From a virus (lineage: Duplodnaviria > Heunggongvirae > Uroviricota > Caudoviricetes): a stretch of DNA of 31,287 nt. Made by a program: the position numbers. Below, in pieces: positions 6,001 through 12,000 of the stretch; position 1 is the first letter of the stretch; every line of letters begins with the position of its first letter. Location: positions 1-31,287 of IMG/VR virus record IMGVR_UViG_2548876857_000005. One strand, written 5' to 3'.

Positions 6001-9000
6001 TCTGCCGCAGACATATGACCGTCCTGACCCGCGTATAAAGCAACTGGCTCGTCGCAGCACAGTGACGCCGGATGGCGCTCCCTGTAAATATAACGACATT
6101 ATTCCGGCAGACCACTGTCTGCATGATGTACAGGACATGAGCCGTCTTAACCATCCGAAAGCTGACCTGTCGAAAGGTCAGTACGGAACCGTGGGGCAGG
6201 GGCTGCATATTGCCAAAAAGCTGCTGCCGTTTATACCGGCGAATGCGGGTATTCTTCTGGTTCCGTGCTGCCGTGGTGGTTCAGCTTTCACCACCGGGGC
6301 AGATGGAACATACAGTGACGTGACCGGTGCCTCAGAGAGTTCTACCCGCTGGGGTGTGGGCAGGCCGCTGTATAAGGATCTCATCGGTCGTACAAAAGCC
6401 GCGCTGGCAAAGAACCCGAAAAATGTGCTGCTTGCCGTGGTGTGGATGCAGGGGGAATTTGACTTTGACGGAACGCCAGCAAATCACACAGCCCGTTTTA
6501 CAGAAGTAGTGGAACAATATCGTACGGACCTTGCAGATATGGTGGGACAGTGCGCTGGTGGTTCTGCTGACGGTGTTCCCTGGATATGTGGAGACACAAC
6601 TTATTTCTGGAAGCAGAAGAGCGAATCCACTTACCAGACGGTGTACGGCAGTTACAAAAACAAAACGGAAAAGAATATTCACTTTGTGCCGTTCATGACC
6701 GATGAGAACGGAGCAAATGTCCCGACGAACAAACCGGAAGAAGACCCGGATATTCCGGCATCAGGATATTACGGTGCGGCCTCCCGGACGTCGGCAAACT
6801 GGACGTCAGCAGACCGTGCGAGCCATTTCAGCTCATGGGCACGCAGGGGGATTATTTCTGACCGTCTTGCCTCAGCGATTCTTCTCCATGCAGGACGGAC
6901 GGCTGAACTGGTGGGTGGGGAACAGGTTGTGATGCCGCCGGATGAGAAGCCGTCACCGGACACACCATCAACACCGTCAACGGACGGGAAATCAGTGACA
7001 ACGCTGCTTTATTACCGTGCAACAGAGTCAGGTGGTTTACTGAATCCGCAGGGATGGGGAGCTGAAGGAGGGCGTGCATTGGTAGTTGATGATGCAGGTG
7101 CTGCAGGAGGTAAGGCGCTGAGGTGGACCAAACAGACAGGAAGTTCCTCGTGGTTTATGCAGCATGATGCCGGTAATGGCGCAGACCTGCTGGAGAAGGG
7201 CGGGCTTATCAGTTGTCGTTTTAAAGTTGATGGCACACTGACAGCTAATCAGTACGCACTGGCGCTGTACTGGCCGGTTTCTTCACTGCCTCAGGGCGTC
7301 ACACTGGAAGGTAATGCCGGTCATAACCTGCTGGCGTCGTTTTACGTACAGAGCGATGCCACAGACCTTAATGTGATGTACCACAAGGGAAATGCTGGTC
7401 AGAACACGAAGCTGGGGTCATTCGGCGCATTTGATAACGAATGGCATACGCTGGGCTTCCGTTTTGCCGGTAACAACAGTATTGAGGTGACGCCGGTCAT
7501 TGATGGTAAGGACGGGACGCCGTTCATGCTGTCACAGTCACCGGTCGGCACGTTTACGGCAGACAAATTGCGCGTGACCGATATCACTAGCGGTGCGACA
7601 TATCCGGTGCTGATTGAAAGTATAACAGTGGAAGTGAATAACCCGTAAGCAGGAAAAAAAGGCCGCCGGGGCAGGGAAAACAAGGAGCCAGAACCGGCGG
7701 CAAATGTCGTTATATCCAAAGCAAAACATGCAGGACACTTTTTTAACCAACAGGTATTAACGATGTCAACACCATATCAATAACCGGGAGGGATAATGAG
7801 ATTTGTACAGCTTATTTTATTGTATTTCTGCACGGTGGTGTGCACGTTATATCTGGTAAGTGGCGGGTATAAGGTTATCCGGAACTATATACGCAAAAAG
7901 ATTGATGCCGCGGCGGCGGAAAAAATCAGCGCCAGCCAGTCAGCCGGAACAAAACCCGAAGAGCCTCTCATTTCGTAGCAACTTTCTTAACAACACCTTT
8001 CAACGAGAAAATCCCATGTCAGAAATAAAATCTCTGGTCACTGCTGAAGCAGTGAAGGACGTCCTGCGCTCTGAAGAAGTCAGAAGCGCACTGAAACAGC
8101 AACTCCGCCAGAATCTTGAGGCGCGTCTTGATGCTGAAGTGGATGCCATTCTGGATGAGCTGCTGGGGGGACCGGCTGCTCCTGAGCCTGAAGACGGCGC
8201 GGGTGACAGTGCTGTTTCAGATGGCGTCGTGTCTCAGCCTGACGGTAGCAGTGAGCCTCAGCCTGACGGCGAAATGATGATGTAACCATGCGCAGGGGCT
8301 GTCGGTGTGAGCTGATGCCCCTCCTGTTGTTGTGAGCTTCCGGATTGCGAGAGACGGGGTATGTACCAGATGGAAAAAATCACAACAGGTGTGTCATACA
8401 CCACGTCAGCGGTGGGAACGGGCTACTGGTTCCTGCAGCTGCTGGACAAAGTCTCTCCGTCTCAGTGGGCGGCAATAGGCGTGCTGGGGAGTCTGCTGTT
8501 TGGGCTGCTGACATATCTGACTAACCTGTATTTCAAAATCAGAGAGGACCGTCGTAAGGCGGCGCGGGGAGAGTAAAGCGATGAAGAAAAAATACGAACT
8601 GGTTGTTAAAGGGATAAATAATTACCCGGATAAGATTACTGTTACTGTGGCACTGGAAATTGGTGGGTATCCGTCACTGTTGTTGCCAGATGTGGCGATT
8701 AGTCTTGACCGTACTGAAGGTGCCACGCTGGAGTTTTACGAAGCTGAGGCGAAAAAGCAGGCGAAGCAGTTTTTCATGGATGTTGCTGCCGGGTTATGTG
8801 AAGGGGATGGTCCGTTGCCGGAAAATCGCCCCGTAATTTTAGAGGCGCAGGATGTGTTGATAACCTACAAAGGAAAGCTACCGGGAAGAATTACTTGTTC
8901 TCTGAAGATGCCGCCGTCAACACTGCGGTCAGAAAAAGATGATGTTGAATCACGTATTGAAAAACTGGAGTGCTGTGTTACTGAATTGAAAAAAAGCACC

Positions 9001-12000
9001 CCAACAAAAAATGAGGTGCTTGCAGCAGATGAAATGAAAGAAACTATTCTTGAATTAGCTGCGCGCCTGAACTGCGCTTCACTGTTGAAAGAGCATTTTC
9101 AGCAGCCCTGAGGAATCTTTTATCATCACGAGCATCGGTCTTTGGTATTTCTTTAATGAGATGTTCCATTTCGGCGATCAGGTAATCTGACACAGCGTTA
9201 TTCTTACCAAGTGCATCCATGGCTTTGATTATCTTTGGGAGAAGAAAACCGACCTGTAACTCAAGAGTGAAAATTCTGTCAAAAAGCGCTGTATTTTCTT
9301 CATTCATATCTGTTCATTATCTTTGCGAGGCAGCCATCTCACATTGTTGGGTTTACGCCAGTGCCCACCACCGGCGGGCTGAAGACTTAACATATCCAGG
9401 GGTCCGGAACCGATAAATCCTGATAAATATCCATGAACGCAAAAATCAGATACGGCCTGTCGGCTGCCGTTCTGGCGCTGATTGGTGCAGGGACGTCTGC
9501 GCCTGAAATCCTCGACCAGTTTCTTGACGAAAAAGAAGGTAACCACACCACGGCATACCGTGATGGTGCGGGGATCTGGACCATCTGCCGCGGTGCCACC
9601 CGAGTGGATGGTAAGCCTGTCGTCCCGGGTATGAAGTTATCGAAGGAAAAGTGCGACCAGGTTAACGCCATTGAACGTGATAAGGCGCTGGAGTGGGTGG
9701 AGCGCAATATTAAAGTACCGCTGACCGAACCCCAGAAGGCGGGTATCGCGTCATTTTGTCCTTATAACATTGGCCCCGGTAAGTGTTTCCCGTCTACGTT
9801 TTACAGACGGATTAATGCAGGTGATCGAAAAGGTGCCTGCGAAGCGATTCGCTGGTGGATTAAGGACGGTGGCAGAGACTGCCGTATCCGCTCAAATAAT
9901 TGCTACGGTCAGGTATCCCGGCGAGACCAGGAAAGTGCACTGGCGTGCTGGGGAATTGACAGATAAGCAGAATATTTTGCTGAAAAATGACGTTGGCCAA
10001 CGCGGGCGGATAACACGAAATCCTGCGAACTGGCAAAAACTAAGTGAATAAAAGTAAAACCCCGTTTGTTGGCCGCAAACGGGGTTTTGTGTTTCTGACC
10101 TTGAGTAAGGCAAGGGAGAACATGGGAAAGTATAAACGAATTCTGTTGAGATTGACTATGAAAAACGGCCTTGAACTGAAAGCGCCTGTAACTGATGACG
10201 TCAGCAGAGCGCTGGCTTTTGCTATTAAGTGGGTGGCGGTCGGTATTGCTGTGTCTCCGATGCTGTATGGGCTGGCAAAACTGGTCATTGCGTTGAAATC
10301 GTGAAGAGGATTAAGCATGTCAGACAAGCTCATAACGCTGGCGAAGATCCTCTGTGTAATCGTCGGCATTTCATTTTCACTAATGCTGGTTGCTATTTGC
10401 TTTTCCACTGCCTGGCGCGTCTTAACTTTGTCATGGCTGGTGGGGTGAGGGGGATATGAACCGTGTTCTGTGTGTGGTGATTATTGTCCTGCTGGTAGCC
10501 TGTGGTGTGCTTAGTCTGGGGCTGAATCATTACCGCGATAACGCCATTACCTACAAAGCGCAACGCGATAAAAAAGCCAGTGAGCTGAAGCTGGCGAACG
10601 TGACAATTACTGATATGCAGGTACGCCAGCGTGATGTCGCTGCACTTGATGCCAGATACTCGAGGGAATTAGCCGATGCGAGAGCTGAAAATGAAACTCT
10701 GCGTGCTGATGTTGCCGCTGGTCGTAAGCGCCTGCGCATCAACGCCAACTGTCCAGGCTCCTTGCGTAAAGCCCCCATCACCTCCGGCGTGGATAATGCA
10801 ACCGGTCCCCGACTGGCAGAAGCCGCTGAACGGGATTATTTCATCCTCAGAGAACGGCTGATGGCAATGCAGAAGCAACTGGAAGGAGCACAGGAATATA
10901 TCCGTACCCAGTGTATACCGTGATGTTTTGTTATGAAGGTGTTACTGGTAACGTTAAGGTAATTTAACAAAGAGTCAGTTCCGGACTTTATAGTGTGCTC
11001 AGTTCATGGACAAAAACGATTTCTGTGATAAATATTTTGAATATTATTTACAGGTAAATGGAGTGGGGCGCATGGATAGAAATATTACAATAGAGTATGA
11101 AGTATATGCCCGTATTGTATGGGCAGAGAAGGCAAAAACACGGTAATTCCGTGTGTTGCCATGATACCTGATTGGCAGAATAGTTGTTTGGTTTTGAGTA
11201 TATAGTCAGCGTTTTTTGTTCAGTAATTGCCCCCTCAAAAAATAATAAAATAAGGTGATTATTTTTGTTTATTATTTAGTTTTTTTTGTGTGTTATTTTA
11301 TTGTTTTTGCGTGGTTTGTTTTTTATTGTTATTTCATTAAGGGAAGGTAAATTCAGGATGGCAGTCTGTAGATAATCGGAGGTCACTTATGCTACATGAT
11401 CACGTGGCAGAATGTCTGGAGAAAAAAGGACTGTACCGGAGAGCAGCTGAACGATGGGCAAAAGTGATGGTACAGCTAAGTGATGACCAGAAAAGAAAAG
11501 TGGCGGCACAGAAACGAGCAGAGTGTTTGCGTAAGGCGCGCCGGACTCCGGTTTCACCGGTGAACCTGACCGAAATAAAACAAGCGGTCAACAGACTACA
11601 TTCTGAGTTGGGAATGGGATTTGAAGAGCGGCGGGTATTCCGACGATATAAAGGGACAGGAGAACAGAATACGTCCGGAAACGCGCGGTCAAAAAAATGC
11701 TAAAAAATATCTGAGAGAGTTATTGCCTGTTACCATAAGAAAAAGCGACTTTAGTGGTCGCTTTTTGTGTCATATATAAGTCGTTTAAGTAAACCTGTCT
11801 GAACAGGTGCTCTGGTCGTGTTTGTCTTTGTTGGGTACAAATTGAGAATATTTTTCATTAATTAATCTTCTTCTGCAGGCTTCAATAACCCACGCTGAAA
11901 AATTACCTGAACCTTTCAGGTCAAGAGCGATGTTAATTTGTTCAATTATCTGGTTTGGAAATCGGATGTTGCGGGTTGTTGTTCTGCGGGTTCTGTTCTT

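What the first reader, a model, noticed from the sequence alone, without database searches (positions are those of the whole stretch)
8577..9432. Two unrecognised genes inserted between the pinholin and the SAR endolysin
In phage 21-type lysis cassettes the S21 pinholin and SAR endolysin are adjacent. Here about 860 bp separates them and carries a 176-aa ORF (8581..9111) that starts 4 nt after the holin stop, so it is probably co-translated from the late transcript. An 87-aa ORF (9044..9307) lies on the opposite strand and overlaps its 3' end by 68 bp. Neither protein matches a family I recognise, and neither has a signal peptide or TM segment. Cargo placed here would be expressed exactly at lysis, or in the prophage if it has its own promoter. 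It could be a lysis-timing regulator, a superinfection-exclusion or anti-phage module, or a toxin/antitoxin-like pair. E. coli K-12 Qin has one gene (ydfR) at the analogous position, so the site is a known insertion point, but I cannot confirm sequence homology.
Basis: partly seen in the sequence, partly recalled or inferred. Interest (0 to 1): 0.75.

Follow-up and report, generated by a model that had tools for sequence, protein, structure and literature searches.

The report
YdfR gene plus antisense moron cassette
Between the holin and endolysin genes of this E. coli O103:H2 prophage sit a late gene of the known but uncharacterised YdfR family and, on the opposite strand, a small self-contained 'moron' gene whose structured RNA leader is shared by about twenty unrelated small phage genes across the enterobacteria.

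Summary
Both ORFs exist exactly as described. They are not two unrecognised genes.

**ORF1 (8581-9111, +).** This is a YdfR/DUF1327 protein (Pfam E 1.7e-44), so it is a homologue of Qin ydfR. Its last ~57 codons are a separate module, "C1", that elsewhere is a stand-alone 51-57-aa ORF with a strong Shine-Dalgarno sequence.

**ORF2 (9044-9307, -).** This is a real gene under purifying selection (dN/dS 0.04-0.2). The family is tiny: 30 clusters, and 45 of 5426 complete E. coli genomes. No function is assigned.

**ORF2 transcription-unit signals.** A hairpin plus T7 terminator follows the stop codon. An ~73-nt structured leader (9310-9382, -) precedes the start, with a conserved -10-like hexamer upstream of it.

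**The leader family.** It is absent from Rfam. It occurs in at least 166 enterobacterial phage and prophage loci. There it precedes about 20 unrelated 64-99-aa ORFs, almost always antisense inside late operons. One helix has strand-specific covariation.

**Known relatives.** HK022 gp22/gp23 and ES18 gp24(DUF1327)/gp25, both annotated as morons, are the same cassette type.

**Verdict.** This is a known kind of element (a moron) at a known site. The function of both proteins remains unknown. The shared leader looks new and is testable. No evidence supports a toxin-antitoxin or a known defence system.

The parts
8361..8576 (+). S21-type class II holin (context; upstream neighbour in the late operon)
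   Evidence: PF04971 E 3.6e-33, phrog_20/9876 'holin'
8581..9111 (+). ORF1, a 176-aa YdfR-family protein. It comprises a DUF1327 domain, a linker and a fused C1 module.
   Evidence: PF07041 E 1.7e-44 over aa 1-100. 43% identical to K-12 YdfR. The 176-aa form is intact in L006-L010. AF2 model: beta-beta-beta-alpha domain aa 1-73 (pLDDT 70-88), disordered 72-117, helical hairpin 112-162.
8938..9111 (+). C1 module, the last ~57 codons of ORF1. Elsewhere it is a stand-alone 51-57-aa late-strand ORF convergent with the cargo gene.
   Evidence: Stand-alone homologues with strong SD sequences: Citrobacter L005 6191-6364 (GGGAGGT), CharmingMan L011 868-1041 (AAGGAGGT) and L025 5176-5331 (AAGGAG). It is internal in 211/305/329-aa YdfR proteins. 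dN/dS is not distinctive.
9044..9307 (-). ORF2, an 87-aa predicted three-helix protein; the cargo gene of the antisense cassette
   Evidence: phrog_18136 E 4e-55. 30 clusters in 5.8 billion proteins and 9 representatives in an exhaustive HMMER search. dN/dS 0.04-0.2 in its own frame only. AF2 model is a 3-helix bundle, pLDDT 64.
8985..9021 (-). Intrinsic terminator of ORF2: a 10-bp stem, 8-nt loop and T7 tail, lying inside the ORF1 C1 coding sequence
   Evidence: Terminator scan. The stem is kept in Citrobacter, CharmingMan and L025 through paired changes AC/GT to GT/AC.
9310..9382 (-). Structured 5' leader of ORF2, a divergent member of a widespread leader family. P1 is UCAGCC:GGCUGA, P2 is the hairpin at 9356-9376, and GAGAUGGCUGCCUC lies at 9325-9340.
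   Evidence: Covariance model R1, trained without this window or its E. coli relatives, scores 35.6 bits, E 9e-6; this is the only hit in the window. P2 covariation is shown. No Rfam family matches.
9389..9394 (-). -10-like hexamer TATGTT, ending 7 nt upstream of CAGCC (the leader's first U at 9382 is the seventh). A possible -35 (TTTATC) lies at 9412-9417.
   Evidence: The position-specific TAnnnT is conserved (T 85%, A 97%, T 86%) in 118 distinct upstream sequences. The consensus promoter scan does not call it, so the promoter is inferred, not shown.
9433..9966 (+). SAR-type lysozyme (context; downstream neighbour). There is no recognisable SD, and it starts 321 nt after the ORF1 stop.
   Evidence: PF00959 E 1.9e-25; sequence read.

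Best explanation
The 860-bp interval is one mobile two-strand 'moron' cassette sitting in the Q-dependent late operon.

**Late strand.** It carries a YdfR-family gene. The gene has an N-terminal DUF1327 domain, which in K-12 YdfR binds the catalytic half of RNase E and co-purifies with RNA. This domain is joined in frame, through a disordered linker, to a small helical module (C1). ORF1 is translated with S and R at lysis.

**Opposite strand.** It carries an independent unit made of four parts:
- a -10-like element;
- an ~73-nt structured leader;
- an 87-aa three-helix protein (ORF2);
- an intrinsic terminator embedded in the C1 coding sequence.

**Proposed expression.** I infer that ORF2 is transcribed on its own, most likely in the lysogen. 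I infer that its translation is gated by the leader. The leader holds an SD-like GAGG, a 16S-3'-end-like anti-SD segment (GAUUACCUC in the canonical form) and the real SD. When late transcription runs through, the two convergent RNAs collide or pair.

**Family behaviour.** The leader and the C1/terminator end act as constant flanks between which the cargo ORF is swapped among phages. Window and PhiR5_1 share both flanks but carry unrelated cargo.

**What ORF2 does.** This is not known. The hypervariable small cargo at a fixed, prophage-expressed position argues for an accessory role in phage-phage or phage-host conflict rather than a role in lysis itself.

**Shown versus inferred.** Shown: anatomy, homology, selection on ORF2, RNA covariation and distribution. 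Inferred: promoter activity, lysogenic expression, translational gating and all protein functions.
For: - **ORF1 family.** DUF1327 match and alignment with Qin YdfR.
- **YdfR biochemistry.** YdfR residues 1-72 bind RNase E 1-597/598 in BACTH and co-purification assays, and RNA co-purifies (PMC13232886).
- **Mobility.** Window ~8945-9400 is homologous to a Citrobacter segment that lies outside its lysis cassette and has no DUF1327. The same unit occurs in phage CharmingMan and IMG/VR phages after a glycosyltransferase gene. It also occurs in distant relatives L034 and L036 inside late operons.
- **ORF2 selection.** dN/dS 0.04-0.2 with pS 0.55-0.8.
- **Terminator.** Predicted in the window, with compensatory changes in relatives.
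- **Leader distribution.** 166 elements; about 20 cargo families; opposite-strand long ORFs on both sides in 109 of 123.
- **Leader structure.** In P2, 6 of 8 pairs change on both sides and 96% of cells are paired; 0 of 500 shuffles reach the observed value and slid controls give 26-50% paired. Nineteen U-G pairs make the structure strand-specific.
- **Independent detection.** Model R1 finds the window copy.
- **Annotated relatives.** HK022 gp23/gp22 and ES18 gp25/gp24(DUF1327) are annotated morons with the same leader.
- **DUF1327 pairing.** DUF1327 is convergent and adjacent to the cargo in 5 of 5 leader loci that have one.
- **Turnover at this site.** Short 114-aa YdfR forms keep a leader remnant upstream of R, as expected from a deletion.
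Against: - No expression data of any kind were available.
- The consensus sigma-70 scan finds no promoter in the window copy or in a canonical copy. Only the -10-like hexamer is conserved.
- The window leader is a degenerate copy: it lacks GG and AUUA of the invariant 22-mer, and its SD is AATGA instead of AAGGA. It may be poorly translated or decaying.
- P1 and the GAGG:CCUC pairing never vary, so covariation says nothing about them.
- C1 shows no protein-level purifying selection separable from other frames. One relative has a frameshift in its A7 run (L017). PGAP treats the gene as truncated.
- Terminator-like sites after other cargo genes are only modestly enriched: 46 of 152 against 26 of 152 on the other strand.
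- Fold and profile searches gave no functional lead for ORF2.
Confidence: 0.55

Rival explanations
1. ORF1-C1 and ORF2 (or YdfR and ORF2) form a toxin-antitoxin-like or anti-phage defence pair. The convergent overlap would provide antisense control.
For: The convergent 68-nt 3' overlap is conserved in four lineages. DUF1327 is always convergent and adjacent when present. Cargo is hypervariable. Antisense position in late operons is typical of prophage-expressed accessory genes (PMC7067206).
Against: PADLOC, Pfam and NCBIfam give nothing for ORF1, ORF2 or ten cargo representatives. Cargo is exchanged while the partner stays (window versus PhiR5_1). Most leader loci have neither C1 nor DUF1327. 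In the overlap, only the ORF2 frame shows constraint. K-12 YdfR over-production changed few transcripts.
Confidence: 0.12
2. ORF1 is a decaying gene. It would be a truncated remnant of longer (211-329 aa) YdfR proteins whose tail is only read-through across the antisense gene. The window's ORF2 is itself on the way out.
For: PGAP flags the gene as a pseudogene missing its C-terminus. Relatives of 305 and 329 aa continue past the window's stop codon. C1 dN/dS is not distinctive. L017 has a frameshift, and L028-L032 have a deletion removing the ORF2 start. About 16 of 45 E. coli genomes hold only 56-63% of the ORF2 body. The SD and leader are weakened in the window.
Against: The 176-aa and 161-aa forms are kept open in many independent E. 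coli prophages with two different DUF1327 subtypes. C1 exists as a stand-alone ORF with strong SD sequences in three lineages. ORF2 is at least 99% identical in 18 complete genomes. E. coli variants differ mainly at synonymous sites, dN/dS 0.07-0.17.
Confidence: 0.2
3. The conserved 'leader' is not an RNA element. It would be a DNA-level linker or boundary sequence, or a protein operator, that promotes homologous exchange of cargo between phages.
For: The 22-mer GAGGGATGGCTGATTACCTCTG and P1 are invariant from Xenorhabdus to E. coli, which fits sequence-specific recognition. The constant flanks do bracket swapped cargo. An upstream palindrome CTGAT-N5-ATCAG is also conserved.
Against: P2 keeps pairing through many double changes and uses U-G pairs that would be A-C mismatches on the other strand. 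The element has a fixed orientation and a fixed 14-21-nt distance to an SD and ATG. A role in recombination and a role as leader are not exclusive.
Confidence: 0.1

Closest known systems
E. coli K-12 Qin YdfR (b1555, DUF1327/PF07041)
   Same: Same Pfam family. Same position directly after an S21-type holin and before the lysozyme. The N-terminal ~75 residues align (43% identity overall).
   Different: Qin YdfR is 103 aa and its stop overlaps the rrrQ start, with no antisense gene. The window protein has a 45-residue linker and the C1 module, and R starts 321 nt further on. RNase E binding has been shown only for the K-12 protein.
Phage ES18 gp24/gp25 and phage HK022 gp22/gp23 ('moron gene products')
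   Same: The same leader precedes an antisense small cargo gene that is convergent with a short late-strand ORF. In ES18 the late-strand partner is a DUF1327 protein.
   Different: They lie between tail genes (M/L and I/J), not between holin and endolysin. Their cargo proteins belong to other families. HK022 gp22 is unrelated to C1. Their leaders are canonical, whereas the window's is degenerate.
Lambda bor and other prophage-expressed genes antisense to late genes (for example ST64B STMMW_20121)
   Same: A small gene of opposite orientation embedded in the late region near the lysis genes. Transcription from an own promoter in lysogens is shown for STMMW_20121 (PMC7067206). bor is antisense in Stx2 phage 86. 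That bor is expressed in lysogens is from my own knowledge.
   Different: There is no sequence relation. None is known to share a common structured leader or to be part of an exchangeable-cargo family.
Anti-CRISPR / anti-defence loci with a constant regulatory region and variable small genes
   Same: Many unrelated small proteins sit behind one conserved control region at a fixed genomic position (analogy from my own knowledge).
   Different: There is no aca-like regulator gene. The orientation is antisense within the late operon, which suits lysogenic rather than early-infection expression. No cargo has a known anti-defence function.

Membership tests
YdfR / DUF1327 (PF07041) | Match to the Pfam model above the gathering score | tested here: met
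   150.4 bits against a cut-off of 25, E 1.7e-44, aa 1-100
YdfR / DUF1327 (PF07041) | Location between holin and lysozyme of a lambdoid lysis cassette, as for Qin ydfR | tested here: met
   The family also occurs between tail genes in ES18.
YdfR / DUF1327 (PF07041) | Binding of the RNase E N-terminal half through residues 1-72 | not testable with these tools
   Shown only for K-12 YdfR (PMC13232886). The region is conserved in the alignment.
Moron (independent unit inserted in a phage operon) | Present in some genomes and absent from related genomes at the same site | tested here: met
   Absent in Qin and in the 114-aa YdfR Stx phages. Different cargo in PhiR5_1 and Stx2 phage 86.
Moron (independent unit inserted in a phage operon) | Own promoter | tested here: inconclusive
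   A -10-like TAnnnT is conserved 7 nt before the leader, but there is no acceptable -35 and the consensus scan finds nothing.
Moron (independent unit inserted in a phage operon) | Own factor-independent terminator | tested here: met
   Hairpin plus T7 located 22 nt after the ORF2 stop. The stem is kept by paired changes in three other lineages.
Moron (independent unit inserted in a phage operon) | Expression from the prophage | not testable with these tools
   No transcript data were available.
Leader RNA family defined here (model R1) | P1 UCAGCC:GGCUGA enclosing hairpin P2, then GAGGGAUGGCUGAUUACCUCUG, SD and AUG | tested here: met
   35.6 bits, E 9e-6, full-length match at 9310-9382 (-). 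P1 and P2 are present. The 22-mer is shortened to GAGAUGGCUGCCUCGC and the SD is weakened.
Toxin-antitoxin or known anti-phage defence system | Match of either protein to a known toxin, antitoxin or defence family | tested here: not met
   No PADLOC, Pfam or NCBIfam hit for ORF2 or the C1 part of ORF1.
Colicin DNase immunity protein (Im7-like) | Sequence similarity over the four-helix immunity fold | tested here: not met
   The single-sequence hit has E 0.41 over 45 residues. It disappears with a family profile. Foldseek shows no similarity.

The most novel reading that the evidence does not exclude
The leader is a new class of cis-regulatory RNA. A pseudoknot-capable fold containing an SD decoy and a 16S-like anti-SD would respond to a host or phage signal. 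It would gate a hypervariable arsenal of small prophage proteins, with cargo swapped between constant flanks. These cassettes sit antisense in late operons of phages from E. coli to Xenorhabdus. The YdfR-family RNase E-binding protein would be a recurrent partner that handles the resulting sense/antisense RNA.
Probability: 0.2. Interest if true: 0.8.

Novelty: new variant of a known kind. Interest (0 to 1): 0.55.

Why it matters
**What is ordinary.** The two genes themselves are ordinary. One is a member of a known family of unknown function, and the other is a rare orphan moron gene, already annotated in RefSeq.

**What may be new.** The cassette belongs to a large, apparently undescribed family. 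One structured leader, supported by covariation and absent from Rfam, sits in front of about twenty unrelated small proteins. These lie antisense in the late operons of many enterobacterial phages, including the classic HK022 and ES18 morons.

**What it would offer if the leader is regulatory.**
- A handle on how morons are expressed.
- A simple search key for finding prophage accessory genes.
- A set of small proteins to screen for exclusion or counter-defence activity.
- A link between the unexplained YdfR family (RNase E binding) and antisense gene pairs.

Tried and rejected
- **Im7-like immunity protein.** The single-sequence hit was weak and was lost with a profile and by fold search.
- **Rfam.** Nothing in 8200-9600 or on a canonical leader. 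There was a 15.6-bit isrK-like match just upstream of the leader on the other strand in L025, far below the 50-bit threshold.
- **PADLOC.** Nothing for the window proteins, their relatives or ten cargo representatives.
- **Protein-pattern scan of species-representative genomes for ORF2.** No confirmed relative.
- **Whole-leader alifold on mixed sequences.** It recovered only the invariant P1, because Xenorhabdus-type leaders lack P2. I solved this by aligning only P2-containing leaders.
- **Promoter types read by eye.** An extended -10 and a sigma-54 -24/-12 do not fit the spacing. The upstream palindrome is 15 bp (CTG-N9-CAG), not a 16-bp LexA box, and does not match CRP or FNR half-sites (my own reading).
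- **A terminator as a general feature of all cassettes.** Enrichment is only weak.
- **ES18 genome paper.** It could not be read.

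
Full report
**Observation.** The S21-type holin is at 8361-8576. ORF1 is 176 aa at 8581-9111 (+), starting 4 nt after the holin stop. ORF2 is 87 aa at 9044-9307 (-), with a 68-bp convergent overlap. The lysozyme is at 9433-9966. 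The holin and lysozyme match PF04971 and PF00959. The window is identical to the chromosome of E. coli O103:H2 FWSEC0007. It is a lambdoid prophage next to ydfJ, the Qin site, that also carries paa, hokD and nleG7. RefSeq already annotates ORF1 as a 'YdfR family protein' (pseudogene, C-terminus missing) and ORF2 as a hypothetical protein.

**ORF1.** Residues 1-100 match DUF1327 (PF07041) with E 1.7e-44, and the protein aligns with K-12 Qin YdfR at 43% identity. In Qin, essQ, ydfR (103 aa) and rrrQ are tightly packed with no antisense gene.

The one functional lead is a 2026 paper. K-12 YdfR, through residues 1-72, interacts with the N-terminal catalytic half of RNase E in two-hybrid and co-purification assays, and RNA co-purifies with it. 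Over-production changed few transcripts (PMC13232886).

**The C-terminal 57 residues of ORF1 are a separate module (C1).** In a Citrobacter prophage, in phage CharmingMan and in several IMG/VR phages the homologous sequence is a stand-alone ORF of 51-57 aa. Each has its own ATG and a strong Shine-Dalgarno sequence (GGGAGGT, AAGGAGGT, AAGGAG). Each is convergent with an ORF2 homologue and overlaps its 3' end.

In E. coli the module is fused in frame to two different DUF1327 subtypes (176 and 161 aa) or is internal in longer proteins. Its protein-level constraint is not demonstrable. dN/dS is 0.3-0.6 in the non-overlapping part, no better than other frames. In the overlap only the ORF2 frame looks constrained. 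One relative has a frameshift in the A7 run (L017). I therefore regard C1 as translated but of uncertain importance.

**ORF2.** It is full length in phrog_18136 but has no Pfam, NCBIfam or PADLOC match. The family is tiny:
- 30 clusters at 90% identity, nearly all E. coli;
- 9 representatives in an exhaustive profile search of 1.84 billion proteins;
- the gene body in 45 of 5426 complete E. coli genomes, with about 16 of those truncated.

It is nevertheless a real gene. Against homologues of 59-66% identity (and the 71%-identical L025), dN/dS is 0.04-0.2 with synonymous sites near saturation. The shifted frames give about 0.6-9. The one reverse frame whose third positions coincide with ORF2's is also low (0.14-0.34), as expected for that frame. 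The model is a three-helix bundle of modest confidence. Neither Foldseek nor a PDB profile search gave a lead, and a weak Im7 resemblance vanished with the profile.

**ORF2 is a transcription-unit-like cassette.** Twenty-two nucleotides after its stop lies a 10-bp hairpin with a T7 tail on the minus strand. The stem is maintained in three other lineages by paired changes.

Upstream, about 75 nt are conserved not only with ORF2 homologues but also in front of the unrelated antisense ORFs of PhiR5_1 and Stx2 phage 86. The whole segment from window ~8945 to ~9400 recurs in Citrobacter outside the lysis cassette and without any DUF1327 gene. It is therefore mobile.

The common 114-aa YdfR form of many Stx phages looks like a deletion between short repeats (CCACCG / CTGAAGA). 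That deletion removed C1, ORF2 and most of the leader, but left the leader's upstream end in front of R.

**The leader is a widespread family.** An exact scan for its most conserved 19-mer gave 83 hits in species-representative genomes. About 50 were in Enterobacterales such as Pantoea, Xenorhabdus, Photorhabdus, Enterobacter, Citrobacter, Erwinia and Pectobacterium. The rest are about the number I estimate for chance matches.

- 166 elements also have the upstream CAGCC.
- In nearly all of them an SD and ATG follow 14-21 nt later and open an ORF of 64-99 aa.
- These cargo ORFs fall into 23 BLAST clusters, about 20 of them genuine. One is DUF1883; the rest are unnamed PHROGs or nothing. None is in PADLOC.
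- In 109 of 123 cases with both flanks available, the nearest long ORFs on both sides are on the opposite strand.
- Annotated examples sit between Q and the holins, or between the lysis genes and terminase.
- A -10-like TAnnnT lies at a fixed 7 nt before CAGCC, and a palindrome CTGAT-N5-ATCAG lies further upstream.
- A consensus sigma-70 scan calls no promoter.

**Structure of the leader.** Canonical copies fold into P1 (UCAGCC:GGCUGA) stacked on hairpin P2, followed by AUUACCUCUG, the SD and the AUG. On an alignment of 50 distinct leaders, P2 behaves as follows:
- 6 of 8 pairs change on both sides;
- 96% of cells are paired;
- no shuffle out of 500 reaches the observed value;
- slid controls give 26-50% paired;
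- 19 U-G pairs make the fold specific to the cargo-sense strand.

P1 and a possible GAGG:CCUC pairing never vary, so they are untested. The segment GAUUACCUC resembles the 3' end of 16S rRNA (my own knowledge). Together with the SD-like GAGG this suggests an SD-decoy / anti-SD arrangement. That is an inference.

No Rfam family matches. A covariance model built without the window or its E. coli relatives finds exactly one copy in the window, at 9310-9382 (-), with 35.6 bits and E 9e-6. The window copy is divergent. It reads GAGAUGGCUGCCUCGC instead of the invariant 22-mer. Its SD is AATGA where close relatives have AAGGA. Its predicted fold favours a local GCGAG:CUCGC-type hairpin.

**Link to known elements.** The leader is present in phage HK022 in front of gp23 ('srb protein; moron gene product'), which is convergent with gp22. 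It is also present in ES18 in front of gp25 ('possible moron'), whose convergent late-strand partner gp24 is a DUF1327 protein. In the leader loci that contain a DUF1327 gene, that gene is always the adjacent convergent partner (5 of 5). C1-like ORFs also accompany other cargo families. The window interval is thus one more instance, at the S-R junction, of a cassette type first called a moron more than twenty years ago.

**Interpretation.** I commit to the following reading:
- ORF1 is a late protein made with the lysis proteins. Its DUF1327 domain probably engages RNase E or RNA.
- ORF2 is the cargo of an antisense moron. It is probably transcribed on its own in the lysogen and controlled at translation by its leader.
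- The convergent arrangement makes late and moron transcription mutually interfering.

The proteins' functions remain unknown. I found no support for a toxin-antitoxin or a known defence system. The diversity of cargo behind one leader is what one expects of conflict-related accessory genes. The window copy may be partly decayed.

**Verdict.** The element is a new variant of a known kind. Interest is moderate, and it comes from the leader family rather than from the two ORFs.

Noticed in passing
window 9112-9432 and 9433: The lysozyme gene has no recognisable Shine-Dalgarno sequence (AAATATCC before the ATG). In Qin its start overlaps the ydfR stop. Here the nearest upstream stop on the late strand is 321 nt away, so any translational coupling of R to ydfR is broken by the cassette.
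   Followed up: no
window 1249-1398 and 5404-5570: Rfam gathering-score hits were found for the sok antitoxin RNA (next to hokD) and for the sRNA STnc100 just upstream of the 645-aa SASA/NanS-type esterase gene (5711-7648).
   Followed up: no
L025 4846-4870 and many other leader loci (about 25-40 nt upstream of the -10-like hexamer): A conserved 15-bp palindrome, CTGAT-N5-ATCAG, sits where an activator could bind. In the window its left half is replaced by the start of the lysozyme gene.
   Followed up: partly
L056 (Photorhabdus temperata) 1449-1467 and 2438-2456: Two leader-cargo cassettes lie in tandem about 1 kb apart. Several Xenorhabdus genomes carry several copies. Their leaders lack hairpin P2 (CAGCCAAATATTAACCAAC...).
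   Followed up: no
L033 (Stx2a phage Stx2_EH2201) 880-950; window ~8907 and ~9352-9380: The 114-aa YdfR form common in Stx phages appears to arise by deletion between short repeats (CCACCG / CTGAAGA). It still carries the upstream end of the leader in front of R.
   Followed up: partly
L028-L032 (IMG/VR E. coli prophages): A deletion between two CAAAGATAA repeats removes the ORF2 start and 22 codons while the 176-aa ORF1 stays intact. L017 has the opposite pattern: a frameshift in the A7 run of C1 with ORF2 intact.
   Followed up: partly
L011 (phage CharmingMan) 1054-3465 and L022-L027: In these phages the stand-alone C1-like ORF directly follows a 485-aa glycosyltransferase gene, with the SD overlapping that gene's end. 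The cassette there abuts what looks like an O-antigen modification operon.
   Followed up: no
L025 4836-4909 (-): There is a weak isrK-like Rfam match (15.6 bits, threshold 50) on the opposite strand just upstream of the leader. It overlaps a terminator hairpin and is probably noise.
   Followed up: no
window 11900-18000 (from L001 annotation): The prophage is heavily decayed downstream of the lysis genes. It holds several IS3 copies, and its terminase genes are inverted, the large-subunit gene truncated, so the late operon here is unlikely to yield particles.
   Followed up: no
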